DNA of 64,000 nt. Origin: Vicinamibacterales bacterium (lineage in GTDB: Bacteria > Acidobacteriota > Vicinamibacteria > Vicinamibacterales > SCN-69-37). The position numbers and the translations under genes are program-made. The DNA lies in NCBI GenBank assembly GCA_035606665.1, contig DATNEY010000027.1:133787-197786 (forward strand), given 5' to 3'. Under the pieces are notes generated by a model that was not told the DNA's origin, ran no database searches, and saw only the letters and a program-made list of their open reading frames with translations. Shown piece after piece: positions 15,209-25,378 of the stretch. The first letter of the stretch is position 1; each line of letters begins with the position of its first letter.

Positions 15209-16123
15209 GTGACTCCACGCCCGATCCAGATCATCGGCGTTCCACTCGACCTCGGCGGCGCACGCCGCGGCGTCGATATGGGGCCGTCCGCCGTCCGCAT
15301 CGCCGGTCTCGGCGAGCGACTGACGGCAATGGGCTTCAAAGTCGCCGACAAGGGCAATCTTGACGCCCCAATCCCGGAAACCCGCGAAGAGCGGGATCCG
15401 AAGAAGAAATACGTGCGCGAGATCGCGCGCGTCTGTCAGAAGCTTTATCAGCAGACCTACAGGGCCATTGAAGGCGGCGCCATCCCGATCGTGCTGGGCG
15501 GCGATCACTCACTGGCCGCCGGATCAGCCGGCGCCTCCGCCGATCACGCCGCCTCACGCGGGAAGGAGATCGGCCTGCTCTGGGTGGATGCGCACGGCGA
15601 CATGAATACGCCCGCATCGACCTCTACCGGGAACGTGCACGGCATGCCGCTCGCGGCGCTGCTCGGCCCCGAACCAGCCGAGCTCTCGCGCCTCGGCGGG
15701 CGCTCCCCGAAGGTGCGCGCGGACAAGACCGTGCTCATCGGTATCCGGAATCTCGATCCGCCGGAGAAGGCGCGCATCCTCGAGGCTGGGGTCCACGTCT
15801 TCACGATGAAGGACATCGACCGCGACGGTATTGCGAAGGTGATGGAGCGGGCACTCGCGATCGCCGCCACGGACACCGACGGCATCCACGTGTCGTTCGA
15901 CGTCGATGTCTGCGACCCCTCGATTGCGCCCGGCGTCGGCACGCCAGTCAAGGGCGGCCTCAACTATCGCGAGGCCCACATGGTGATGGAAATGGTCGCC
16001 GACTCAGGCTGCCTGAAGGCACTCGACATCGTCGAAATCAACCCGATCCTCGACACGCAGAACCAGACAGCGATTCTTGGCACCGAGCTGGTACTGTCAG
16101 CCTTCGGACAGCGAATCATCTAA
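15209..16123 (+). CDS. rocF: Arginase
   Basis: GGDHSLA, DAHGDMNTP and SFDVDVCDP metal-binding blocks of the ureohydrolase family. Arginase-like N-terminus IGVPLDLG. Confidence 0.9.
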   Translation: MTPRPIQIIGVPLDLGGARRGVDMGPSAVRIAGLGERLTAMGFKVADKGNLDAPIPETREERDPKKKYVREIARVCQKLYQQTYRAIEGGAIPIVLGGDHSLAAGSAGASADHAASRGKEIGLLWVDAHGDMNTPASTSTGNVHGMPLAALLGPEPAELSRLGGRSPKVRADKTVLIGIRNLDPPEKARILEAGVHVFTMKDIDRDGIAKVMERALAIAATDTDGIHVSFDVDVCDPSIAPGVGTPVKGGLNYREAHMVMEMVADSGCLKALDIVEINPILDTQNQTAILGTELVLSAFGQRII

Positions 16124-16140: not shown

Positions 16141-16215
16141 GGGCCGCTAGCTCAGGGGTAGAGCACCTGGCTTTTAACCAGAGGGTCGCAGGTTCGATTC
16201 CTGCGCGGCCCACCA
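16141..16215 (+). tRNA. tRNA-Lys (anticodon UUU), CCA encoded
   Basis: Hand-folded cloverleaf: acceptor GGGCCGC/GCGGCCC, D arm GCTC/GAGC, anticodon stem CCTGG/CCAGA with loop CUUUUAA, T arm GCAGG-TTCGATT-CCTGC, then ACCA. Confidence 0.9.
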
Positions 16216-16333
16216 ATACGCACGGCCTCATTTGGCACTCGTCTCGACACCGATACCCGCCACCGGCGCCCTGGCCGTCCTCGGCCTGCTGGCCGTGCTG
16301 GCCGTCGAGCGCGAAGGGGTTAACGGAACGAGT

Positions 16334-17377
16334 TCAGCGGCCGTTGGCGCGCAGCATCCGATAGTGCGATCGGAGTGCGGCGCCGAACGTATCGTGCAGG
16401 TGATAGGCCACGCCACGCTCCGCACAGATCCGCTGCACGACCGGCGCGATGCGCGGGTAGTGCACGTGCGAGATCCGCGGAAACAGGTGGTGCTCGATCT
16501 GGAAATTCAGTCCGCCGACGAAGGCGCCCAGCACCCGGGACCGCGGAGCAAAGTTCATCGTCGTCGCAATCTGATGCACGGCCCACTCGTCGGCCGCCGC
16601 GCCCGCGTAGAACGCGGTGTCCTCGACGCAGTGCGCGAGCTGGAACACCACGCTCAGCGTGAGACCGACGACCACTGAGGTGAGCAGGTAGAACGTCAGC
16701 GCGAACGGGACCCCGTGCACGAGCGACGGCACGACGAACGTGGTGATGAAGAACGCCGCCTTGCCGGTCACGAACATCACGAGCTCGAGCCCCCGGGGGC
16801 GCGGCAGCGGCATGTCGCCGATCCGGCCCCGCAGGACATCCCGGAAGTCATCGACGAAGTGCCACTTCAGCGGGAGCAGGGCGTACAGGAACCACAGGTA
16901 GACATGCTGATAGCGATGGACCCAGTGTCTCTGCTGAAACTCCGCGAGGCGGCCGATTGGTGCGATCTCGATGTCACTGTCCACGCCGCCGATGTTCGGA
17001 TAGGTGTGGTGATAGACGTTGTGCTTCCAGCGCCAGACGTACGAACTCCCGCCCAGCAGATCCAGTGAGAACGCCGCCAAGCGGTTGACGAAGCGGACGC
17101 GCGACAGCGACTCGTGGCCACCGTCGTGCTGGACGTTGAAGCCGATGGCCGCCAGCAGGAGGCCGAACGGCAGGGCGAGCACCAGCGCCACCCACCCGGA
17201 CAGGGAGAGGTAGGCGGCATAGAGCGCGATCGTCGCGGCGACAATCACGGCGATCTTGGCGTAGATGGCCGGAGGGTCACGCGGCTCGTCGGCCGCAATC
17301 TCCTGGTGAACGGCCGCACGGAGCGCCGTGTAGAAGCCGCTGTGCGGCGGAAACTGCGGCGCGCGGCGGGCCGTCAC
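16334..17377 (-). CDS. Membrane fatty-acid desaturase, front-end type (QxxHH third His box)
   Basis: His boxes HDGGH, HNVYHH and QIEHH, with multiple TM segments. Confidence 0.85.
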   Translation of the reverse strand: MTARRAPQFPPHSGFYTALRAAVHQEIAADEPRDPPAIYAKIAVIVAATIALYAAYLSLSGWVALVLALPFGLLLAAIGFNVQHDGGHESLSRVRFVNRLAAFSLDLLGGSSYVWRWKHNVYHHTYPNIGGVDSDIEIAPIGRLAEFQQRHWVHRYQHVYLWFLYALLPLKWHFVDDFRDVLRGRIGDMPLPRPRGLELVMFVTGKAAFFITTFVVPSLVHGVPFALTFYLLTSVVVGLTLSVVFQLAHCVEDTAFYAGAAADEWAVHQIATTMNFAPRSRVLGAFVGGLNFQIEHHLFPRISHVHYPRIAPVVQRICAERGVAYHLHDTFGAALRSHYRMLRANGR

Positions 17378-18927
17378 GCGTGCCCCACGGCGCGAACGGG
17401 TTGATAGCGCGCGTCAAGGAGATCGTCCGCCGTGTCCGCGCTCAACTCGCCCCCGATCGTCGTGATGGGCGTCGGCTGGAAGTGATGAACGTACCGGGCG
17501 TCCACCGGAAGCCGTGGCGTGTAGACGCAATCGAGCCGATCGGTCGTGCTGACATGGGTGCGGGCCTGCTTCCGGACCAGGACGTTGCGCGGATCGGCGA
17601 ACGCGCTGGGCGAATACAGGCTCGCCATCGACGCGGACGACACGAGCTTCTGCGTCGCGGTCAGGCAGTGCCGATAGCGCCACAGAAAACGGGCCTGGTG
17701 ACGGACGAGCGCCTGCCGGAAGCCGTGGAAGTACTTCAGGCGTCGGATGGCGGCGCCGACCTCATCGATGCCGTCGAGCGGCTGGAGCGAGAGCGTCGAG
17801 CCCTCGAGATCGCGCGCCTTCGTGTTCGGCAGGATCCTCCGCTCGGCCAGCCGCTCATGGAAGAACGGGGTCCCGGGGAACGGAATGGCGAGGAAGATGA
17901 AGTTCGGCGGCGGAATCTCCGGCGAGTCGCAGATGAGATCGAGCTCGCCCTCGAGATCGGCGATCCGGCGTTCGGTCGGGTCGAAGACGATGCCGTACTG
18001 GAAGAGGATGCCGGCCCTGATGCAGCGCGCGATGAGCTCCACCTGCGAGAACCGCGGCGACGCGTTCTGGGTCTTGTTGACGCGGCGCAGCCAGGCGGTG
18101 TCGAACGACTCGACGCCGATGAAAAGTGAGATGCAGCCGGCTTCCCGGGCCAGGGTCAGGTTCTCCTCGTCCCACAGGAGGGTATTCGTGCAGATGGCGC
18201 TCCAGGGCCCCATCCGTCCGCTGGCCCGCAGCTCGCGGAGCAGCGCCATGCGCTCGACGAAGAACGCGCGGTCCGGACCGTAGAACTGGTTGTCCACGAA
18301 CAGCACGGCGCGCCGCCGGCCAAGCGCGTCGAGTTGCTGGCGGAGCGCCGCCATCGACTGCTTCTGATAGCGCCCGCCCTCGCCGGTCAGCGAGCAGAAG
18401 CTGCAGCGGAAGTTGCAGTTCCGGCTCGATTCGGCGTAGCCGACCGATCCAATCCAGTCGGCGAGATCGTAGCGTGGCGTCATCCGGTCGGCGACCGCGG
18501 CGGCGCCCCACACGTCGCGAACGACACCGCACAGCTCCTCGACATCGCCGACGCAGACGTAGTCGAAGAACTGGCGCGAGTACCGGCGGAACGCGCGGAT
18601 GGCCTGTCCGCCCGCGACCAGCACCACCCTCGGATTCGCGGTGCGGAAGTACGCGGCGAGTTGCTTCAGGCGATCGAACGAGGCAATCAGACCCGTCAGG
18701 ACCACCATATCGGGCCACTGCACCAGGCCCGGCTCGAAGACCTCCAGGAACCCGCTCGACACCTCGTTGTAGATGCGGACCTCGCACGTGCCCGGCGCGA
18801 ACGCGCCGGCGAGCAGGATTGGCGCGAGCGTGTTCGGGATCTCGCGCGTCAGCCGGACAGGCTCGCGCGTCTCGGGCAGGTAACCGTTGACGATGAGGAC
18901 GCGCTTCTTCAGCGCGGACGCGGCCAT
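17374..18927 (-). CDS. B12-binding-domain radical SAM enzyme (class B-like)
   Basis: N-terminal Rossmann-like cobalamin-type domain (VVLTGLIASF...VLVAGGQAI), then SSRNCNFRCSFCS (CxxxCxxC). Its stop overlaps the desaturase start by 4 nt. Confidence 0.85.
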   Translation of the reverse strand: MAASALKKRVLIVNGYLPETREPVRLTREIPNTLAPILLAGAFAPGTCEVRIYNEVSSGFLEVFEPGLVQWPDMVVLTGLIASFDRLKQLAAYFRTANPRVVLVAGGQAIRAFRRYSRQFFDYVCVGDVEELCGVVRDVWGAAAVADRMTPRYDLADWIGSVGYAESSRNCNFRCSFCSLTGEGGRYQKQSMAALRQQLDALGRRRAVLFVDNQFYGPDRAFFVERMALLRELRASGRMGPWSAICTNTLLWDEENLTLAREAGCISLFIGVESFDTAWLRRVNKTQNASPRFSQVELIARCIRAGILFQYGIVFDPTERRIADLEGELDLICDSPEIPPPNFIFLAIPFPGTPFFHERLAERRILPNTKARDLEGSTLSLQPLDGIDEVGAAIRRLKYFHGFRQALVRHQARFLWRYRHCLTATQKLVSSASMASLYSPSAFADPRNVLVRKQARTHVSTTDRLDCVYTPRLPVDARYVHHFQPTPITTIGGELSADTADDLLDARYQPVRAVGHA

Positions 18928-19179
18928 CGCAGACTTCCAGGCCCGCGCAGCGCACTATTCCGGGCTACGCCGCATGTGTGAGAGACGAGACCAGGCTGCT
19001 GGCCGTCACGGAGTTCTCTTGGCGTGGCGGCTGGTTTCTCCGCTCTCAGCTTCGAGTCGTTGAACGCGGTAGTGGTTCGTCGCGGCATGACCCAGGCACA
19101 CTCTAGGCACAAAACCCAGGGATGGCAAGAACGATGACGCCAAGCACTGAAGCGCCATATATCGAGTTCTTAGGCCTAG

Positions 19180-20376
19180 CTACGGCGACCTAGGCCGTTC
19201 AGGCGCGCGGCCCACCACTTCACTTCGAACTTCCAACTTCGAACTTCGAACTTCCGCAAAGCACTTCCCCGCTTCTTCAAGTCCTTTGCGGAAGATGTCC
19301 GGCCGCTGACCCACACCGAGCCGCAGATGACGCTCGTATCCGAACGCGGATCCGGGCGCGAGCATGACGCTGTAGTCAATCGCGAGCTTGTCCGCGAGCG
19401 GAAGCGAATCCATCGGCAGGTCGTACTTGAGCAGCGCGAGCAAGCCACCTCGGGGAGGCGTCCAGGAGAGAAACGATTGCCGATCTCCTATCCACTTCCC
19501 CGCCTCGGCGATGTTGGCTGTGATGATCTCCGTGTTGCGCGCGACGATACGCTCGCGGTGGCGCATGCCGAGCTGCGCCAACGCGTCGTTGAGCTTGCCG
19601 GGACTGAGTGAAATGTAGTCGCGCAGGCTCCAGCACGCCTGAATCAGATCCGGCGGTCCCATGATCCACCCGATGCGGAGACCGGGCAGGCCGAACGGTT
19701 TCGACAAGGTACCAACACTGATGCCGCGCGGCCCAAGATCGAAGGACGGCTCCGCGAATGGCTCGCCGTCCGGCACCGCCAGCCAACGGTAGGCCTCGTC
19801 GCCAATCACCGTCGCGCCAACGGAGTCCGCAAGGTCGTAGACGCGCCGGGCATCCGCGGGTGAGAGCATCGCTCCCGTTGGATTGTGCGGCGTATTGACG
19901 ATGATGACTTTGGTTCTGGGCGTGACGAGACGCTCGAGCGCGTCCACGTCGTAGCGATAGGCGGTCTCAGGACCGACATGCCACAGCGAGACATCGCAAC
20001 CAATCGCCTTGGGGACGCTGTACAGCTGCTGGTACGCCGGATACGGCGCAATCATGTGATCGCCCGCGTCGAGCAACACATTGAACAGTAGGTAATTCGC
20101 TTCGATCGCCCCGGTCGTCACGAGGACATGGTCCGGATCGCCGCGCCGGTACGTCGCCGCCAGCATGCCCCGCAGTTCGGCCGTGCCGCGGGCCTCGCTG
20201 TACCCCAGTGGAAGCCGCAGCAGCTGCTTCAGTGTTTCGTCGCGCCGATCGGGCGGTTCGAACGCCAGCAGGTCGTCAGTGGATAGAGGAAGGATGCCGC
20301 TCTCGGCGATGTCGTAGCGGACGTTCGTCTCGTGACGAGTCATCCACCGCTCAAGAAGGAACGTTTCGATCTTCAT
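19180..20376 (-). CDS. Pyridoxal-phosphate-dependent aminotransferase (class I/II)
   Basis: Start placed at MKIETFLLERWM (ATG 20376). NPHNPTG-type block (VNTPHNPTG) and SKPFGLPGLRIGW (PLP lysine). The track ORF extends spuriously to 20775. Confidence 0.85.
   Translation of the reverse strand: MKIETFLLERWMTRHETNVRYDIAESGILPLSTDDLLAFEPPDRRDETLKQLLRLPLGYSEARGTAELRGMLAATYRRGDPDHVLVTTGAIEANYLLFNVLLDAGDHMIAPYPAYQQLYSVPKAIGCDVSLWHVGPETAYRYDVDALERLVTPRTKVIIVNTPHNPTGAMLSPADARRVYDLADSVGATVIGDEAYRWLAVPDGEPFAEPSFDLGPRGISVGTLSKPFGLPGLRIGWIMGPPDLIQACWSLRDYISLSPGKLNDALAQLGMRHRERIVARNTEIITANIAEAGKWIGDRQSFLSWTPPRGGLLALLKYDLPMDSLPLADKLAIDYSVMLAPGSAFGYERHLRLGVGQRPDIFRKGLEEAGKCFAEVRSSKLEVRSEVVGRAPERPRSP
19223..19257. 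repeat. Heptamer tandem repeat CTTCGAA x5 at the 3' end of the aminotransferase ORF
   Basis: CTTCGAA CTTCCAA CTTCGAA CTTCGAA CTTCCGC. It is followed by the 11-bp inverted repeat CTTCCGCAAAG...CTTTGCGGAAG. Confidence 0.6.
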
Positions 20377-20430
20377 TCGCAATGAAGTGTAACGGCAGGT
20401 GGCGGCCGGGTGCGAACGAGCGGGCAGCGA

Positions 20431-20514
20431 GTGAGGCGCCGGAGCGGCGCGGGGCAAATGGGGTCCCCGCAAGCGACGGCGCAAGGGGGTCCGGCGGGAC
20501 GAAGTCCCCCGGAC
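20431..20514. repeat. GC-rich repeat element, copy B (inverted relative to copy A at 981-1060)
   Basis: The reverse complement GTCCGGGGGACTTCGTCCCGCCGGACCCCCTTGCGCCGT... matches GCCGGGGGCCTTCGTCCCGCCGGACCCCCTCGCGCCGT... at 981 onward. Confidence 0.6.
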
Positions 20515-20966
20515 TAATTGAAGACGGCGAGCAGCTCGATGTCGAAGACGAGGGACGCGTTCGGTGGAATCGCGCCGCCGGCGCCGTTGCGGCCGTAGGC
20601 GAGCGACGCCGGAATGATCAGCCGCCGGATGCCCCCGACCTTCATGCCGACAATGCCCTGATCCCAGCCGGCGATGACCTGCGAAGCGCCCAGAAAGAAA
20701 ACGAAGGGACGGCCGGTCTGGCTCGCGTCGAACTGCTCGCCCTTCTTGTCCGCCTTGGACCCGTCGTAGAGCCACCCGGTGTAATTGACGCTGATGGTGG
20801 AGCCCGTCGAGGCCGCCGCACCGGTCCCGACGCGAACGTCGATCTTGGTGAATTCCACCGGAACGGATGGCTGGGAAGGGCTGGTGCAGGCGGCGCCCAG
20901 CAGGGCCGACGCAACCGCGAAGGCAGTGAGAACCGCCTTCGCGGCGCGGGGAAATCGTTGAAGCAT
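20514..20966 (-). CDS. FKBP-type peptidyl-prolyl isomerase, probable lipoprotein
   Basis: Start placed at MLQRFPRAAKAVLTAFAVASALLGAAC (lipobox). FKBP core VNYTGWLYDGS...FDAS...VIAGWDQGIVGMKVGGIRRLIIPASLAYG. Confidence 0.85.
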   Translation of the reverse strand: MLQRFPRAAKAVLTAFAVASALLGAACTSPSQPSVPVEFTKIDVRVGTGAAASTGSTISVNYTGWLYDGSKADKKGEQFDASQTGRPFVFFLGASQVIAGWDQGIVGMKVGGIRRLIIPASLAYGRNGAGGAIPPNASLVFDIELLAVFN

Positions 20967-20970
20967 GCGG

Positions 20971-21492
20971 TTACTGAATCGGGGCGGCCGGCGCGCCGAA
21001 GGGCTGCGTCGGAGCGGTCGCCGCCGCCAGGTACCAGATTGAGCTCGAAGCATCCGTCGCGAATGACCGTGTGCCCGTCGTCCCAAACGTCATCGGCACG
21101 GCGGTGGCGTAGAAGGACGTGATGCTGGCCGTGCCGTTGCAGTCCGTCGGTCCAGGGTTCGATCCGTTGCCGGCGACCATCGCGAAGTCATAGCCGGTCT
21201 TCTTCGGCGTGGCGCTCAAGCCCAGATCCGGAGAGATGAAGCCCTGGCCAACACCCCCGGGAGGCGCGTAGAGCTGCGGCAGACTCGATGCGTAGCCGCC
21301 GTTGCCGCAGGCCGTCGAATAGGAAACCTGCGACGTGGCGATGGCCTTGAGCGAGCCTATTGCCGACGTCTCGTTGCCCGTCATCCTCGAACGCAACAGG
21401 CCCGGCACGGCAATGGCGGCGATGATGCTGATAATCGCCACAACAATAAGGAGTTCGATGAGTGTGAATCCGCGATCTGAGGTTCTGATCAT
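20971..21492 (-). CDS. Prepilin-type N-terminal cleavage/methylation domain protein (type IV pilin or pseudopilin)
   Basis: Start placed at MIRTSDRGFTLIELLIVVAIISIIAAIAVP (G/FTLIEL class III signal). Confidence 0.8.
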   Translation of the reverse strand: MIRTSDRGFTLIELLIVVAIISIIAAIAVPGLLRSRMTGNETSAIGSLKAIATSQVSYSTACGNGGYASSLPQLYAPPGGVGQGFISPDLGLSATPKKTGYDFAMVAGNGSNPGPTDCNGTASITSFYATAVPMTFGTTGTRSFATDASSSIWYLAAATAPTQPFGAPAAPIQ

Positions 21493-21593
21493 AGGTGACG
21501 TCCCCTTCAAGACTACCTCAGCTTTGGACTGCCGGACGGGCGAATTGGTTGCGCCGCGGGACCCGATTGGCGTCAACGGCCGTATTGGAGAGT

Positions 21594-21785
21594 ATGACTA
21601 AGTTCTTCCTCTGGGTGCTCTTACTGGTCATCTGCTGGCCGGTGGCCCTGTTAGCGCTGGTCCTGTATCCCATCGTCTGGGTGATCCTCCTGCCCTTCCG
21701 CCTTATTGGCATTGCCGTTGAGGGGGTCTTCGCCTTTCTCAGGGCCGTTCTTTTCCTGCCCTCAAGGGTCCTCGGCGGCAGGTAG
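21594..21785 (+). CDS. Small hydrophobic membrane protein (63 aa)
   Basis: MTKFFLWVLLLVICWPVALLALVLYPIVWVILLPFRLIGIAVEGVFAFL gives two predicted TM helices. The internal ATG was chosen. Confidence 0.4.
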   Translation: MTKFFLWVLLLVICWPVALLALVLYPIVWVILLPFRLIGIAVEGVFAFLRAVLFLPSRVLGGR

Positions 21786-23204
21786 AGCGGGCGTCGTGCC
21801 GGGCTCCGGCATCCTGAGCACGTCCCGGCGAAAGTCGGTCCGGAAGGCGTCGATCTCACGGATGAGCCGCGCGCGCGTGCGCACGAGATTCCGGCGCGTG
21901 AGCGGCAGGCGCATCAGGATCCCCATCGCTCTGACGCGGCCGGCGTAACGCCGCAGGAACCTGGCATAGTGGTGCGCGAAGACTCCAGTGACCGGCAGCG
22001 ACGACAGATAGAGCCCAGCAAGCAGCCCGCCCGCGAAGTACCACATCAGTCCCGCCGCGAGCGCGTACAGCACGCCGAATCCAATGAAGCCGGCGATGAT
22101 CGACGCGTGCGCCACCTGTGCGCGCTTGTTCTCAGGCGGTGAGAACCTGTCCACGGCCCATTCGATCAGCCACACCGGTGCGATGCGGTGTACCCAGCCA
22201 TAAAGCGCGAAAGGCGACCCGGCCACGAGTCCGATCGTCGCGATGAGACCCGGTGTGCGGACAGCACCACCCTCCCCGGCAAGTTCCTCGACGCTGTCGT
22301 CGGACAGTCCCACCAGCCCGAGTCGTTTCTCGTAGCGGATGAGATCGTTCACGAACGTTGCGAGTCTGTCCGGTGCCTCCGACTCGAAGTGCACCAGCGC
22401 CTGTGCGATCGCCTGGCTCAGGACGAGCTCCTCCGCGCGCGGGGGCACGGGCTCTCTGACGAGCCGGTTGCCTGCGCGTAGACGGTCCAGATAAAGACGC
22501 TTCACGGACGCCACGATCCGCTGATGATCGAGGGTCGGGAGGCTGACGATGAGCTCACGAATCCGCTGCTCAATTTCGGCGGACAGGCTCCGGACGGCTG
22601 CGTGACGGTCGCGGCCGTACTCTGCGAGGCTCTCGCCGACGCCGAACGGCTCGCCGAAGTTGACGAGCACGTCGGCGCGGTAGCGGCCCTTCGCGGCATA
22701 CGAGATCCCGACGGGCTGGATCCGCAGGCCGAGGGCGCCACGGTGGCGATCCTCGATCTCCAGCGCCATTCGAGCCGCACCGGTCTTCACCGGCCGGAGT
22801 TGCTCGTCGTTGTAGCTCACGCCTTCGGGAAAGATCCCAATCGCCCCGCCGGTCTCGAGCACTCCGAAGCAGTGCTCGAACGTGTCCGCCACGGTCTTCA
22901 TCGCCGCGGGGTCGTCCTGCCGGCGGTTGATGGGGACAATACCGCAGCGCCTCAGAATCGCGGCGACGAGCCTCACTTTGAACAGCTTCACGGTCGCGAC
23001 AAAGTGGACCGCGCGTGGCACGACCGAACCGATCAGGAACGCGTCGGTCACCGAGCCGGGATGATTCGACACAACCAGGAGCGCTCCGGTCCGGGGCACG
23101 CGCTCGTCATGAAACGACTCGATTCGCCGGAAGTAGACCGTGAGCCCCGCGCGCACAAACCCGCCGACGAGTGCGCGCACCCACCCGGGCTGGACGCCCG
23201 CCAT
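21762..23204 (-). CDS. Lysophospholipid/glycerol-3-phosphate acyltransferase family protein (PlsC-like) with C-terminal membrane domain
   Basis: VSNHPGSVTDAF (HxxxxD), GIFPEGVS (motif III-like). Hydrophobic C-terminal third. Confidence 0.75.
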   Translation of the reverse strand: MAGVQPGWVRALVGGFVRAGLTVYFRRIESFHDERVPRTGALLVVSNHPGSVTDAFLIGSVVPRAVHFVATVKLFKVRLVAAILRRCGIVPINRRQDDPAAMKTVADTFEHCFGVLETGGAIGIFPEGVSYNDEQLRPVKTGAARMALEIEDRHRGALGLRIQPVGISYAAKGRYRADVLVNFGEPFGVGESLAEYGRDRHAAVRSLSAEIEQRIRELIVSLPTLDHQRIVASVKRLYLDRLRAGNRLVREPVPPRAEELVLSQAIAQALVHFESEAPDRLATFVNDLIRYEKRLGLVGLSDDSVEELAGEGGAVRTPGLIATIGLVAGSPFALYGWVHRIAPVWLIEWAVDRFSPPENKRAQVAHASIIAGFIGFGVLYALAAGLMWYFAGGLLAGLYLSSLPVTGVFAHHYARFLRRYAGRVRAMGILMRLPLTRRNLVRTRARLIREIDAFRTDFRRDVLRMPEPGTTPALPAAEDP

Positions 23205-23876
23205 CTAGTCGCCTCCGGCGCCCTTGAATTGATCGTCTTCGTCCGCGAAAAGAACGTTGAACGTCGTGAGAGTGCCGTAGCAGCCGCTGATGTACGACTG
23301 CAGTCTGACCTTCGCGTCGTCTGGAAGATCCGACGCGTTGACCTGCTGTTCGAGGGTACGAAGGCGATTCCGAAGCATCACGATCTTGTGGAAGAACGTT
23401 TCGATCGGAACCGACTTCTCCTGCAGATTCGGTGAGCCCGGCTTCAGGACCAGCGTCCCGCCCCGCCACTTCTCAGCCGGGACGACGGAGGTCACGCCGG
23501 CCTCTTCGCGAATGATGCGGCGCAGCAACGACTCGAGATCGGTGGACGAATTCTCGGGCAGCATGACGGGTGCGCTGGTCCTTTCTCGATCGCTCACGAG
23601 GGGAAACGCGTCTCCCGCGTCCCTGCGTGGCGCTGAGGGACGCGGTGCTGATACTGGTGCGGTGCGCGCCGGCGACCCAGCCGGCGCCGGTGAACCATCG
23701 GTGTCGGTCCTGGGACCTCCGCGATAGTTGTGTTCGCTGCGGCAGTAGCCACAGGTCACACGCAGCGGCCGGCCCGCCGCGTCCGCGGCGATCACCGTGT
23801 GCATGCGATCCACCTTGCAGGCGCGGCAATAGTCCTCGATTGCCGAGCCCGCCCGGGCAGTCCTGATCACTGACAC
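23205..23876 (-). CDS. Hypothetical protein with N-terminal zinc-ribbon (CxxC...CxxC)
   Basis: YCRACK...CGYCRSEH. Its stop directly abuts the acyltransferase start. The GTG start at 23876 is preferred; the track ORF extends to 23960. Confidence 0.5.
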   Translation of the reverse strand: MSVIRTARAGSAIEDYCRACKVDRMHTVIAADAAGRPLRVTCGYCRSEHNYRGGPRTDTDGSPAPAGSPARTAPVSAPRPSAPRRDAGDAFPLVSDRERTSAPVMLPENSSTDLESLLRRIIREEAGVTSVVPAEKWRGGTLVLKPGSPNLQEKSVPIETFFHKIVMLRNRLRTLEQQVNASDLPDDAKVRLQSYISGCYGTLTTFNVLFADEDDQFKGAGGD

Positions 23877-23922
23877 GAGTGGAAGTATTTCACGATGCGC
23901 CGACGCCGTCTGGAGCCGAAGA

Positions 23923-24120
23923 TCAGTCCGCCGCTGCCGGCGGGTGCCGGCGCGCCCCACCCATTCCCAGCCAGACCAGGCCGATTGAGACGGGACCGAT
24001 GAGCAGTTCAGCGTCCGACATGGTTGACCCCGTCGCCACGAGCTTGATCAGGAGGAAGCCCCCCGCGGTAATGAGCAGCGTCTGGCAAAGAAGAATGGGC
24101 AACTGATGCCGGCGTCTCAT
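23923..24120 (-). CDS. Possible small membrane protein (65 aa)
   Basis: MRRRHQLPILLCQTLLITAGGFLLIKLVATG...LLIGPVSIGLVWLGMGG gives two hydrophobic segments. Support is weak. Confidence 0.25.
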   Translation of the reverse strand: MRRRHQLPILLCQTLLITAGGFLLIKLVATGSTMSDAELLIGPVSIGLVWLGMGGARRHPPAAAD

Positions 24121-24277
24121 GGGAATCTGCGCGGCACTCAAGCAACACTTGTGCCTATGCTGTGAGTACTCCTGTCGAGTAACGGCCCGGCAGCAGGCGA
24201 ACACGAGCGGACGCACCCAGTGAAACTCTGCTTCGTCGCCAGGTAATTCCGGGACAAGGATAACGGCCGTCGACAAA

Positions 24278-25378
24278 TCACGGCGCCGACGGTTCCGGCC
24301 GAGACTGAACGCGCGTGAATCGCTGTTTGAGGCGCAAGAATGGGAACTCGAGCCACCGATAACTCAGCGCGGCGATAGCCATCGTCATTGCCAGGGCGAC
24401 GAAAGGCCTGAGCCAGCCATATGGGAAGCCCCTGCCCACCGCGATGCGGCTGAGATCCAACGCAAGGCGATGGAAGACGTAAAGTCCGTAAGAAATGCGG
24501 CCCAGATACTGAAGCGCCGGCAGCCGCAGCATGGGTAATGCCGCACCGCCGCCAAGCGTTGCCAGGATCAGGCCGAGACTCGTCAACGCGACCAGCGGGT
24601 AGGTGACGAGCGACGTCCACCCATCGAGACCGAAGACAAGGGCAACGACAATCAGCGCGACGGGTGCGAGCCCGAGAAGTCCCAGCCGAGTGGATCGTGA
24701 GAGCTGCGGAGACTCACCGCGCAGCGTCAGTGCGATGAGGGCGCCAATGGCGATGGGATCGAGACGTGCCAGGGTGTCAGTCCAGACAGCCGGATGGCGG
24801 ACATTGAGGGCCGCCAGCGCCAGTCGCGTCAACGTTGCCGTCACGAGTAGCCCGACCGCCACAGTCTTCAAACGCCTTTCGTCGAGACGGGACACGACCA
24901 GGGGCCAGACCAGATAGAACTGCTCTTCAATGGAGACGCTCCAGAGCGGCGTCACCCAGGACGAGGGATACCCCCAGGCCGCGACGGACCAGTTGCCCGC
25001 CAGGAGCGCGAACGCGCCCGCATACTTCGCCGGCAGTCCCGGCGATGGAATGAACACCGCGACGACCAGCGCCCCATAGTAGAGCGGCCAGATCCGCAGG
25101 ATGCGCCGCAGGTAGAACGCGCGCACGTCAATCTGCCGGAGTTTCTCTTTCTCGCGCAGCAGGAGTTCGGTAATCAAGTATGCGGAGAGGCAAAAGAACA
25201 GGTCGACACCGAACGCCCCGGCTCTGACGGCGGCAAGCCCCCACGGCGCCAGCCATCCTAGCGACGCGAAGGCAGAGAGTCGGTCCGGAATCGCGTGATG
25301 GACGAAGACCAAAAGAAATGCAAAGAACCGGAGCGAGTCGAGCTCCGGGTGATGAAAAGCTGCCACGCGCCGTGACAC
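24278..25378 (-). CDS. Acyltransferase family 3 (OafA-like) membrane protein
   Basis: LDSLRFFAFLLVFVHH start, and about 10 TM segments. Confidence 0.85.
   Translation of the reverse strand: MSRRVAAFHHPELDSLRFFAFLLVFVHHAIPDRLSAFASLGWLAPWGLAAVRAGAFGVDLFFCLSAYLITELLLREKEKLRQIDVRAFYLRRILRIWPLYYGALVVAVFIPSPGLPAKYAGAFALLAGNWSVAAWGYPSSWVTPLWSVSIEEQFYLVWPLVVSRLDERRLKTVAVGLLVTATLTRLALAALNVRHPAVWTDTLARLDPIAIGALIALTLRGESPQLSRSTRLGLLGLAPVALIVVALVFGLDGWTSLVTYPLVALTSLGLILATLGGGAALPMLRLPALQYLGRISYGLYVFHRLALDLSRIAVGRGFPYGWLRPFVALAMTMAIAALSYRWLEFPFLRLKQRFTRVQSRPEPSAP

What the first reader, a model, noticed from the sequence alone, without database searches (positions are those of the whole stretch)
16334..18927. 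Class-B-like (cobalamin-domain) radical SAM enzyme translationally coupled to a front-end-type membrane desaturase
The radical SAM stop overlaps the desaturase start by 4 nt (17374-17377). The desaturase has the QxxHH third histidine box (QIEHH) typical of front-end (delta4/5/6/8) desaturases. The radical SAM protein has an N-terminal B12-binding-like domain plus CNFRCSFC, the class best known for methylating unactivated carbons. A pair acting near the carboxyl-proximal part of an acyl chain is a plausible candidate for unusual lipid tailoring. One example is the unexplained C5/C6 methylations of acidobacterial membrane-spanning lipids. This is pure hypothesis: nothing in the sequence identifies the substrate.
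Basis: inference. Interest (0 to 1): 0.55.

Follow-up and report, generated by a model that had tools for sequence, protein, structure and literature searches.

The report
Mobile radical-SAM plus desaturase lipid cassette
Two overlapping genes, for an uncharacterised radical-SAM enzyme and a membrane fatty-acid desaturase, are the only cargo of a 3-kb insert next to a tRNA gene. They belong to a widespread enzyme partnership of unknown chemistry that probably modifies fatty-acid tails, not to the acidobacterial tetraether-lipid pathway.

Summary
A 517-aa radical SAM gene (17374-18927, minus) ends in a GTGA overlap with a 347-aa desaturase gene (16334-17377). The desaturase carries HDGGH, HNVYHH and QIEHH boxes.

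New here:
- The pair is the sole cargo of a ~3.0-kb insert after tRNA-Lys. The insert is flanked by a 13-nt direct repeat of the tRNA's 3' end and is absent from relatives.
- The flanking arginase and aminotransferase genes are unrelated old neighbours.
- The radical SAM belongs to a large uncharacterised family found in many phyla. In 44 of 71 loci it is followed directly by a desaturase of a different, delta9-like type, usually with a patatin lipase and a STAND signalling protein.
- The window's clade swapped that partner for a front-end-type desaturase.

Repeated pairing with non-orthologous desaturases supports joint action on fatty-acyl chains. Methylation is not secure. The whole-protein fold is closest to AprD4, which binds no cobalamin, although the N-terminal domain alone resembles true B12-binding domains.

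The link to acidobacterial membrane-spanning lipids fails on distribution: 0 of 40 relatives and 2 of 401 genomes in the phylum carry the gene.

This scan had already noted the wider module on other genomes (e1-4230764, e1-1524587). No paper describing the family was found.

The parts
16141..16215 (+). tRNA-Lys(UUU), the integration target. It is conserved at 97-100% identity in relatives that lack the insert.
   Evidence: ARAGORN; Rfam tRNA 69.6 bits; blastn against G002 and G004.
16203..16215 (+). Left copy of the 13-nt direct repeat GCGCGGCCCACCA, which is the 3' end of tRNA-Lys (attL-like).
   Evidence: Only two exact copies occur in the 64-kb window; alignment.
16216..19204 (.). Insert of about 3.0 kb, present here but absent between the tRNA and the aminotransferase gene in G002 (same genus) and G004 (same family). 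It holds only the two genes and their promoter-like region. GC is 67.1% over the two genes, against 64.0% for the window.
16334..17377 (-). Membrane fatty-acid desaturase, 347 aa, front-end type (HDGGH, HNVYHH, QIEHH), with no cytochrome b5 domain.
17374..17377 (-). GTGA: the TGA stop of the rSAM gene overlaps the GTG start of the desaturase gene.
17374..18927 (-). Radical SAM enzyme, 517 aa. It has an N-terminal flavodoxin/Rossmann-type B12-binding-like domain (about residues 1-150), a CxxxCxxC TIM-barrel core and a conserved C-terminal region.
19100..19128 (-). Sigma-70-like promoter match (TTGCCA, 17-nt spacer, TAGAGT) inside the insert, upstream of the rSAM gene. This is a consensus match only.
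19205..19217 (+). Right copy of the 13-nt direct repeat (attR-like), at the right edge of the insert. Homology to relatives resumes at about 19255-19259.

Best explanation
The two genes are a self-contained, horizontally acquired cassette that tailors fatty-acyl chains. It integrated into the 3' end of tRNA-Lys, and its integrase is now missing.

The cassette appears to be transcribed from its own promoter-like site, and the GTGA overlap ties the production of the two proteins together.

Proposed mechanism, all inferred:
- The membrane di-iron desaturase uses O2 to place a double bond in an acyl chain. Its His-box type suggests a position counted from the carboxyl end.
- The radical SAM enzyme cleaves SAM at its [4Fe-4S] cluster. 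It uses the 5'-deoxyadenosyl radical to attack the same chain at or beside that double bond and functionalises it.
- If the N-terminal domain binds cobalamin (my estimate about 0.6), the most likely outcome is C-methylation. Otherwise another radical outcome is expected, such as C-C bond formation, rearrangement or dehydration-type chemistry.
- The product is an accessory lipid, not a bulk lipid of the lineage.

Shown: gene structure, coupling, the insertion, family-wide pairing with desaturases, and the fold. Inferred: the substrate and the chemistry.
For: Coupling and intact catalytic motifs are shown.

The cassette is an insert.
- Arginase and aminotransferase are adjacent in G004, and only the tRNA-Lys and about 0.5 kb lie between them in G002. 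Here they are 3 kb apart.
- A 13-nt repeat of the tRNA end occurs only at the two borders of the insert.

Family context.
- 44 of 71 genome loci have a DesA/stearoyl-CoA-type desaturase directly after the rSAM. Of 34 junctions measured, 14 are 4-nt overlaps and 5 are 1-nt overlaps.
- The window's 19-member clade (SH-aLRT 100) is nested among clades that carry that partner. The window, L084 and L086 instead carry a front-end-type desaturase with no BLAST similarity to it.
- The rSAM therefore kept a desaturase partner through a non-orthologous swap.
- Six matching contig lengths link further rSAM and front-end-desaturase pairs.
- Other partners all act on acyl chains: patatin, Lipase_3, FeeM N-acyl amino acid synthase, penicillin-amidase-type acylase and AMP-ligase.

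Fold and cofactor.
- The AF2 model has pLDDT 86.5 and a B12-rSAM/AprD4-type two-domain architecture.
- The N-terminal domain alone best matches cobalamin-binding domains: AerR Z 12.7, a corrinoid protein 12.5, TokK 11.8 and MetH 11.5.
- T78-x-L80, then 25 residues, then the invariant G106-G107, fits the SxL...GG part of the classical B12 signature (plus established knowledge).
Against: - No substrate is identified by any test.
- The best whole-protein structural match is AprD4 (Z 22.3, against 18-19 for true B12 enzymes). AprD4 is a sugar diol-dehydratase without cobalamin (PMC12931638).
- Pfam B12-binding is below its cut-off. CheY-like receiver domains score within about 1 Z of the B12 domains.
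- No cobalamin or SAM riboswitch precedes the gene.
- The window lacks the lipase and STAND partners of the wider module, so its function may differ from theirs.
- In anaerobic Desulfobacterales the rSAM occurs without any desaturase, so a desaturase is not obligatory.
- The FA_desaturase family also contains hydroxylases and carotenoid enzymes.
Confidence: 0.55

Rival explanations
1. Isofunctional pair. The radical SAM enzyme is an oxygen-independent acyl-chain desaturase and the di-iron enzyme is its oxygen-dependent counterpart. They would make the same double bond under different oxygen regimes, as BchE/AcsF and HemN/HemF do for their reactions.
For: A B12-type rSAM tetraether desaturase (Ted) has been reported (bioRxiv 10.1101/2025.10.20.683597). 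In strictly anaerobic lineages (Desulfobacteraceae L060 and L064, Syntrophaceae, Brocadiaceae) the rSAM occurs without a desaturase. In lineages from oxic habitats it has one.
Against: Overlapping stop and start codons imply simultaneous, stoichiometric production, which is not expected for alternatives used under opposite oxygen regimes. The partner was exchanged between two desaturase subfamilies that normally differ in regiospecificity. Anaerobes can supply unsaturated chains through FabA/FabB, so the absence of a desaturase also fits sequential action.
Confidence: 0.12
2. Part of a lipid-based signalling or conflict system. The modified lipid would be the substrate or product of a regulated phospholipase controlled by a STAND cyclase or kinase. 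The window would carry a stripped-down, mobile remnant.
For: In other genomes the rSAM sits beside AAA_16-TPR STAND proteins with a nucleotide-cyclase or Ser/Thr-kinase head, and beside patatin lipases. The short patatin resembles the CBASS cGAMP-activated lipase (141 bits, cut-off 200). One STAND-rSAM fusion exists (P0242). The window copy lies on a tRNA-borne islet, in a window that also holds a defence island (earlier notes).
Against: PADLOC gave no hit for the rSAM, either desaturase type or the long patatins. The STAND protein gave only marginal PycC matches, E about 7e-4. The window has no STAND or patatin beside the pair. A module-type short patatin was not found in the genome with the query used. 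Cyclase/kinase-AAA_16-TPR proteins are common ordinary regulators.
Confidence: 0.12
3. Non-lipid or isoprenoid substrate. The rSAM would carry out AprD4-like dehydration or another radical step on a sugar, carotenoid, hopanoid or quinone. The 'desaturase' would act as a hydroxylase or ketolase.
For: AprD4 is the top fold match. The desaturase has a weak NCBIfam hit to beta-carotene hydroxylase CrtR (E 9e-6). The FA_desaturase family includes CrtW, CrtR and AlkB.
Against: No sugar, carotenoid or hopanoid gene is a conserved neighbour in 75 loci. The recurrent neighbours are acyl-lipid enzymes. The AprD4, HpnR, HpnJ and BchE models all score far below their cut-offs.
Confidence: 0.1
4. The pair would install the C5/C6 methyl groups of acidobacterial membrane-spanning (iso-diabolic acid / brGDGT) lipids.
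For: The genome looks acidobacterial (acidobact_VWFA domain). Some family members are in Pyrinomonadaceae and Blastocatellia. No enzyme for these methylations appears in the papers read.
Against: The rSAM was found in 0 of 40 relatives and in 2 of 401 genomes sampled from the phylum. It is a recent 3-kb insert. Most carriers are Gammaproteobacteria, Gemmatimonadota, Myxococcota and Desulfobacterales.
Confidence: 0.03

Closest known systems
Conserved uncharacterised module: STAND (cyclase or kinase) - rSAM - delta9-type desaturase - patatin. Noted earlier by this scan (e1-4230764, e1-1524587) and re-derived here.
   Same: The rSAM is an orthologue, 45-57% identical and within one well-supported tree. 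It is likewise followed at once by a membrane desaturase, often with a 4-nt overlap.
   Different: The window's desaturase belongs to another subfamily (QIEHH, 347 aa, no BLAST similarity). No patatin or STAND gene is adjacent. The pair is the cargo of a tRNA-Lys islet.
Cobalamin-dependent (class B) radical SAM enzymes that modify lipids: hopanoid methylases HpnP/HpnR and the archaeal GDGT/GMGT methylases, ring synthases GrsA/GrsB and desaturase Ted (PMC13459092; bioRxiv 10.1101/2025.10.20.683597).
   Same: Two-domain architecture of a B12-like N-terminal domain plus an rSAM barrel. The likely substrate is a lipid tail.
   Different: No family model reaches its cut-off (HpnR 27.5 of 650, HpnJ 22.9 of 578, ladderane 18 of 360, BchE 29 of 481). 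Cobalamin binding is unproven. The obligate pairing with an O2-dependent desaturase is not a feature of those systems.
AprD4, the radical SAM 1,2-diol dehydratase of apramycin biosynthesis (PDB 6FD2).
   Same: It is the best whole-protein structural match: Z 22.3, rmsd 3.5 A, 380 residues aligned.
   Different: Sequence identity is 17%, and NCBIfam AprD4 scores 16.9 against a cut-off of 500. AprD4 acts on an aminoglycoside and binds no cobalamin (PMC12931638). No aminoglycoside genes are present here.
Front-end / bacterial Des-type desaturases: cyanobacterial delta6, and the Bacillus DesA (delta5) and DesB (delta10) models in NCBIfam.
   Same: HxxxH, HxxxHH and QxxHH boxes. Pfam FA_desaturase scores 121.7 bits. 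JGI names the homologues linoleoyl-CoA desaturase.
   Different: DesB scores only 33 bits against a cut-off of 500. There is no cytochrome b5 fusion. Regiospecificity is unknown. The close clade (64-78% identical) travels with the rSAM.
Two-enzyme routes that modify an existing double bond, cited from memory as analogies only: BfaA/BfaB for 10-methyl stearate, and UfaM/UfaD/UfaO for methylated and furan fatty acids.
   Same: The logic is to make or use a double bond and then add carbon next to it.
   Different: Those routes use classical SAM methyltransferases and flavoenzymes, not a radical SAM enzyme. There is no sequence relationship.

Membership tests
Radical SAM superfamily (PF04055) | CxxxCxxC cluster motif in a partial TIM barrel, scoring above Pfam's cut-off | tested here: met
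   CNFRCSFC at residues 171-178, invariant in 26 homologues. Scores 49.6 bits against 29.5. The barrel aligns to many rSAM structures.
Class B (cobalamin-dependent) radical SAM | N-terminal Rossmann/flavodoxin-type cobalamin-binding domain | tested here: inconclusive
   PF02310 scores 22.9 bits, below the 32.1 cut-off. The domain model best matches B12-binding domains (Z 11.2-12.7), but CheY-like domains score within about 1 Z. TxL...GG spacing fits the B12 signature. The whole protein is closest to the cobalamin-free AprD4.
Class B (cobalamin-dependent) radical SAM | Bound cobalamin and methyl (or other Cbl-mediated) transfer | not testable with these tools
   This needs purified protein. No cobalamin riboswitch precedes the gene.
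Hopanoid methylases HpnP/HpnR; HpnJ; ladderane rSAM; BchE; PhpK | Score above NCBIfam's curated cut-off for the equivalog | tested here: not met
   HpnR 27.5 of 650; HpnJ 22.9 of 577.6; TIGR04072 18 of 360; BchE 29.3 of 481; PhpK 55.7 of 600.
AprD4 family diol-dehydratases | NCBIfam NF033070 above cut-off, in an aminoglycoside gene context | tested here: not met
   Scores 16.9 bits of 500. No aminoglycoside genes in the window or in 75 loci. The fold is nevertheless the closest.
Tes / Mss tetraether and membrane-spanning lipid synthases | Homology to Tes / GDGT-MAS | tested here: inconclusive
   GDGT-MAS 7TOL appears only weakly in Foldseek (E 1.2e-3, TM 0.25). No Tes or Mss sequence was available for a direct comparison.
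Fatty acid desaturase family (PF00487) | Three histidine boxes in a membrane protein, above Pfam's cut-off | tested here: met
   Scores 121.7 bits against 29.7. H84/H88, H119/H123/H124 and Q293/H296/H297 are invariant in 12 sequences.
Front-end desaturases | Third box QxxHH | tested here: met
   QIEHH at residues 293-297.
Front-end desaturases | Fused cytochrome b5 domain (typical of the eukaryotic members) | tested here: not met
   Only FA_desaturase was found, and the protein is 347 aa. From my own knowledge, cyanobacterial members also lack this domain.
Front-end desaturases | Inserts a double bond between an existing one and the carboxyl end | not testable with these tools
   This needs product analysis.
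STAND - rSAM - delta9 desaturase - patatin module | rSAM of this family | tested here: met
   Tree and identities.
STAND - rSAM - delta9 desaturase - patatin module | DesA/stearoyl-CoA-type ~280-aa desaturase directly downstream | tested here: not met
   The window's partner is a different subfamily with no BLAST similarity.
STAND - rSAM - delta9 desaturase - patatin module | Adjacent patatin lipase and AAA_16-TPR STAND protein | tested here: not met
   Neither lies within the insert or its flanks. The genome's patatin genes are on other contigs.
tRNA-integrated genomic islet | Insert next to the tRNA 3' end, flanked by a direct repeat of that end, and absent from relatives | tested here: met
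tRNA-integrated genomic islet | Integrase gene | tested here: not met
   The 3.0-kb insert holds only the two genes.

The most novel reading that the evidence does not exclude
The radical SAM enzyme and its desaturase partner make a previously undescribed modified fatty acid, for example a methyl-branched or internally cross-linked unsaturated chain. In most carriers a dedicated patatin lipase would release it and a STAND cyclase or kinase would sense it, giving a bacterial lipid-mediator pathway comparable in logic to eukaryotic oxylipin signalling. The window would hold a mobile, minimal version of the biosynthetic core.
Probability: 0.15. Interest if true: 0.8.

Novelty: new variant of a known kind. 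Interest (0 to 1): 0.5.

Why it matters
Radical SAM enzymes that rewrite lipid tails have so far been characterised mostly in archaea and in hopanoid producers. This is a large bacterial family, with more than 1,000 database members in at least seven phyla including cultured Parahaliea strains, and no assigned reaction.

Its members stay welded to a membrane desaturase even when the desaturase is swapped for an unrelated subfamily. That is strong genomic evidence for a shared substrate and points to undescribed fatty-acid chemistry.

The window adds a natural minimal test case. A 3-kb, two-gene islet with its own promoter-like site is just what one would clone for lipidomics.

The analysis also removes a tempting but wrong lead for the brGDGT palaeoclimate-proxy problem.

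Tried and rejected
Gene contexts of metagenomic homologues therefore came from the search for related loci and the genome search. For six rSAM/desaturase pairs I have only matching contig lengths, which show co-location but not adjacency.
- I tested whether the neighbouring VioD/GntC-like PLP aminotransferase and the arginase belong to the unit. I rejected this because they are each other's neighbours in relatives that lack the pair, and none of 75 rSAM loci contains them.
- PADLOC found nothing for the rSAM, the desaturases or the long patatins.
- Rfam found no riboswitch in the islet. Among eight module loci, one cobalamin riboswitch lies 5.8 kb away in L013, before another gene, and I judged it unrelated.
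- The repeat finder at a minimum of 14 nt missed the 13-nt att-like repeat. It was found by blastn-short and confirmed by pattern search.
- A search for fused forms found one STAND-rSAM fusion and no rSAM-desaturase fusion.
- Sequence searches of the PDB gave only OxsB for the rSAM (E 8e-4) and nothing for the desaturase.
- The ESM Atlas gave only generic names.
- Six literature searches found no paper on this family and nothing useful on Parahaliea lipids.
- A module-type short patatin was not found in the window's genome with the one query used.
Full report
**1. The observation**

ORF listing and translation confirm two minus-strand genes.
- The first runs 17374-18927, starts with ATG and encodes 517 aa.
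- The second runs 16334-17377, starts with GTG and encodes 347 aa.
- On the coding strand the junction reads GTGA, so the stop and the start share 4 nt.

The first protein carries CNFRCSFC. It matches Pfam Radical_SAM at 49.6 bits against a cut-off of 29.5. Its B12-binding match, 22.9 bits, is below the cut-off of 32.1. NCBIfam gives only weak, sub-threshold hits to class B families (PhpK, BchE, HpnR, HpnJ, the ladderane rSAM) and to AprD4.

The second protein is a clear FA_desaturase at 121.7 bits, with HDGGH, HNVYHH and QIEHH boxes. These boxes are invariant in an alignment of 12 homologues. Each gene is single-copy in the genome as judged by close similarity. The genome has four other FA_desaturase-family genes elsewhere.

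**2. The pair is the cargo of a small tRNA-Lys islet**

Neither gene has an orthologue in the three congeners sampled. Across 40 relatives of the same genus, family and order, the rSAM is absent, and the desaturase has one 40%-identical relative.

The flanking genes tell the story.
- The flanks are an arginase-family gene (15209-16123, plus strand) and a VioD/GntC-like PLP aminotransferase (19180-20775, minus strand).
- In G004 these two genes are 178 bp apart. In G002 about 770 bp separates them, holding only the tRNA-Lys and roughly 0.5 kb. Here they are 3 kb apart.
- Between them, all three genomes share a 75-nt element that is 97-100% identical. It is tRNA-Lys(UUU), at window 16141-16215.
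- The last 13 nt of the tRNA, GCGCGGCCCACCA, recur exactly once more in the 64-kb window. That copy is at 19205-19217, at the other edge of the extra DNA. Chance expectation is 0.36 for the whole window even when one mismatch is allowed.
- Homology to relatives resumes at about 19255-19259.

The pair, a promoter-like site at 19128-19100 and nothing else therefore form a ~3.0-kb insert with the signature of integration into a tRNA 3' end. There is no integrase. The aminotransferase and arginase are bystanders. No remnant of either cassette gene is detectable in the empty sites.

**3. The rSAM family and its usual company**

The rSAM has more than 1,000 database relatives, with the best 120 at E below 1e-179. 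None has an informative name.

A scan of one genome per species returned 75 loci. They come from Gammaproteobacteria (Lysobacterales, Halieaceae including cultured Parahaliea strains, Pseudohongiella, Woeseia), Gemmatimonadota, Myxococcota, Desulfobacterales, Methylomirabilota, Acidobacteriota (Pyrinomonadaceae, Blastocatellia, Thermoanaerobaculia), a Brocadiaceae MAG and others.

None of the window's neighbours recurs in these loci. Clustering of the flanking ORFs and Pfam/NCBIfam scans show a different, strongly conserved company.
- In 44 of 71 loci with at least 1 kb of downstream sequence, the next gene is a ~280-aa FA_desaturase of the DesA/stearoyl-CoA type, with an EGWHNNHH box. Of 34 junctions measured, 14 are 4-nt overlaps and 5 are 1-nt overlaps.
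- In 39 loci a patatin lipase lies within the flank. It is either a long form or a short form that resembles the CBASS lipase below its cut-off.
- Large AAA_16-TPR STAND proteins with a nucleotide-cyclase or Ser/Thr-kinase head are adjacent in most lineages. One STAND-rSAM fusion exists.
- Desulfobacteraceae have the rSAM followed directly by patatin, with no desaturase.
- A Pyrinomonadaceae subclade has a class I SAM methyltransferase or a class 3 lipase in the downstream position instead.

This scan had already described the module on other genomes (e1-4230764, e1-1524587, e1-4230768). I reached it independently from this window.

**4. The window's clade swapped the partner**

In a maximum-likelihood tree of 82 rSAM sequences, the window groups with 18 others at 71-82% identity (SH-aLRT 100). 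That clade sits inside a 59-member clade (SH-aLRT 100) whose other branches all carry the delta9-type partner. The delta9-type partner also occurs on the other side of the root. The root position is the same by midpoint and with three distant paralogues as outgroup, although those outgroup branches are very long.

Inside the window's clade the downstream gene varies.
- It is a front-end-type desaturase in the window, L084 and L086. The same is probably true on six further contigs whose lengths match between rSAM and desaturase hits.
- It is a FeeM-type N-acyl amino acid synthase fused to a class V aminotransferase in L007, L008 and L083, again with overlapping stop and start codons.
- L084 has a penicillin-amidase-type acylase upstream.

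The two desaturase types share no BLAST-detectable similarity. Keeping a desaturase partner through a non-orthologous replacement is the strongest argument that the rSAM and a membrane desaturase work on the same molecule. The other partners all point to a fatty-acyl chain.

**5. What kind of radical SAM enzyme is it?**

The AlphaFold model is confident (pLDDT 86.5, pTM 0.89).
- The whole protein is closest to AprD4: Z 22.3, rmsd 3.5 A over 380 residues.
- A tied group of true B12 enzymes (CysS, OxsB, TsrM, MgmA) and MiaB follows at Z 18-19.
- AprD4 does not bind cobalamin (PMC12931638).

Modelled alone, the N-terminal 150 residues match cobalamin-binding domains best: AerR 12.7, a Desulfitobacterium corrinoid protein 12.5, TokK 11.8, MetH 11.5 and MtaC 11.2. 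CheY-like receiver domains of the same fold score within about one Z unit.

The family conserves T78-x-L80 followed 25 residues later by the invariant G106-G107. That matches the SxL...GG part of the classical B12 signature and lacks the DxHxxG histidine, as in other class B enzymes (established knowledge).

I put cobalamin dependence at about 0.6, and methylation as the specific outcome at about 0.3. No riboswitch precedes the gene.

**6.

Only 2 of 401 genomes sampled from the phylum carry a family member, one of them the window's own. The other (L096) has the rSAM followed directly by a short patatin.

The family is far more common outside the phylum, and the window's copy sits on a mobile insert. 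A role in the C5/C6 methylation of acidobacterial membrane-spanning lipids is therefore very unlikely.

The reviews and papers I read list Tes, Mss, Gms, GrsA/B, Gmm, Cds, HpnH/J/P/R, Jaw5, the ladderane rSAM and Ted as lipid-modifying radical SAM enzymes (PMC13459092; bioRxiv 10.1101/2025.10.20.683597). None corresponds to this family, and six literature searches found no description of it.

**7. Verdict**

The most likely reading (0.55) is a mobile two-enzyme cassette that desaturates a fatty-acyl chain and then radically functionalises it, giving an accessory lipid.

Rivals:
- an aerobic/anaerobic pair of isofunctional desaturases (0.12);
- a fragment of a lipid-signalling or conflict system (0.12);
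- a non-lipid or isoprenoid substrate (0.10);
- the brGDGT idea (0.03).

The chemistry cannot be settled by computation. The cassette is small enough for a direct expression-and-lipidomics test.

The trees are quick searches with SH-aLRT support only. The promoter is a consensus match.

Noticed in passing
window 19180-19258: The last ~26 codons of the aminotransferase ORF are not homologous to relatives. They are read from CTTCGAA-type heptamer repeats, the attR-like 13-mer and the first 25 nt of islet DNA. The insertion therefore gave the protein a new C-terminal tail.
   Followed up: partly
window 15209-16123 and 19180-20775; L097, L098: An arginase-family gene and a VioD/GntC-like PLP enzyme are conserved convergent neighbours around tRNA-Lys in relatives. 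The PLP enzyme scores 282 bits to capreomycidine synthase and 324 bits to PRK07324, both below cut-off. This may be an arginine-derived pathway unrelated to the cassette. In G004 the tRNA is inverted relative to the window.
   Followed up: partly
P0242 (ENA metagenome protein, 1229 aa): A single fusion of an AAA_16 STAND region with this rSAM family, 55% identical over 82% of the query. It could be a real fusion or a read-through of the usual overlapping genes.
   Followed up: no
L009:4929-8725: In a Blastocatellia MAG the closest genomic rSAM homologue (79% identical) is split by a frameshift into two ORFs. It lies next to an ankyrin-repeat gene and an IS110 transposase, so it may be a decaying copy or an assembly error.
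   Followed up: no
L013:15328-15553: A cobalamin riboswitch (105.9 bits) lies 5.8 kb downstream of the rSAM in a Lysobacterales MAG, ahead of an ORF of more than 625 aa. It was seen in 1 of 8 module loci scanned and is probably unrelated.
   Followed up: partly
L049:10404-11417, L027:12050-13201, L096:527-1423: The short patatin partner of the module resembles the CBASS cGAMP-activated phospholipase (NF041079, 141 bits, cut-off 200). In the same module many genomes have a STAND protein with a nucleotide-cyclase head.
   Followed up: partly
L073:8001-11130: A Desulfobacter MAG has two B12-like rSAM paralogues in tandem at this locus.
   Followed up: no
L007, L008:8489-10051, L083:9530-11083: In three close relatives the rSAM is translationally coupled to a fusion of a FeeM-type N-acyl amino acid synthase and a PhnW-like class V aminotransferase. 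An SNF2 helicase gene lies upstream. This may be an N-acyl amine or aminolipid variant of the system.
   Followed up: partly
window 20971-25378: Upstream of the aminotransferase lies a same-strand run. It comprises a type IV pilin-like gene, a 480-aa PlsC-type acyltransferase with weak OlsA similarity, a 251-aa gene with no family and an Acyl_transf_3 membrane acyltransferase. It was not examined further and lies outside the insert.
   Followed up: no
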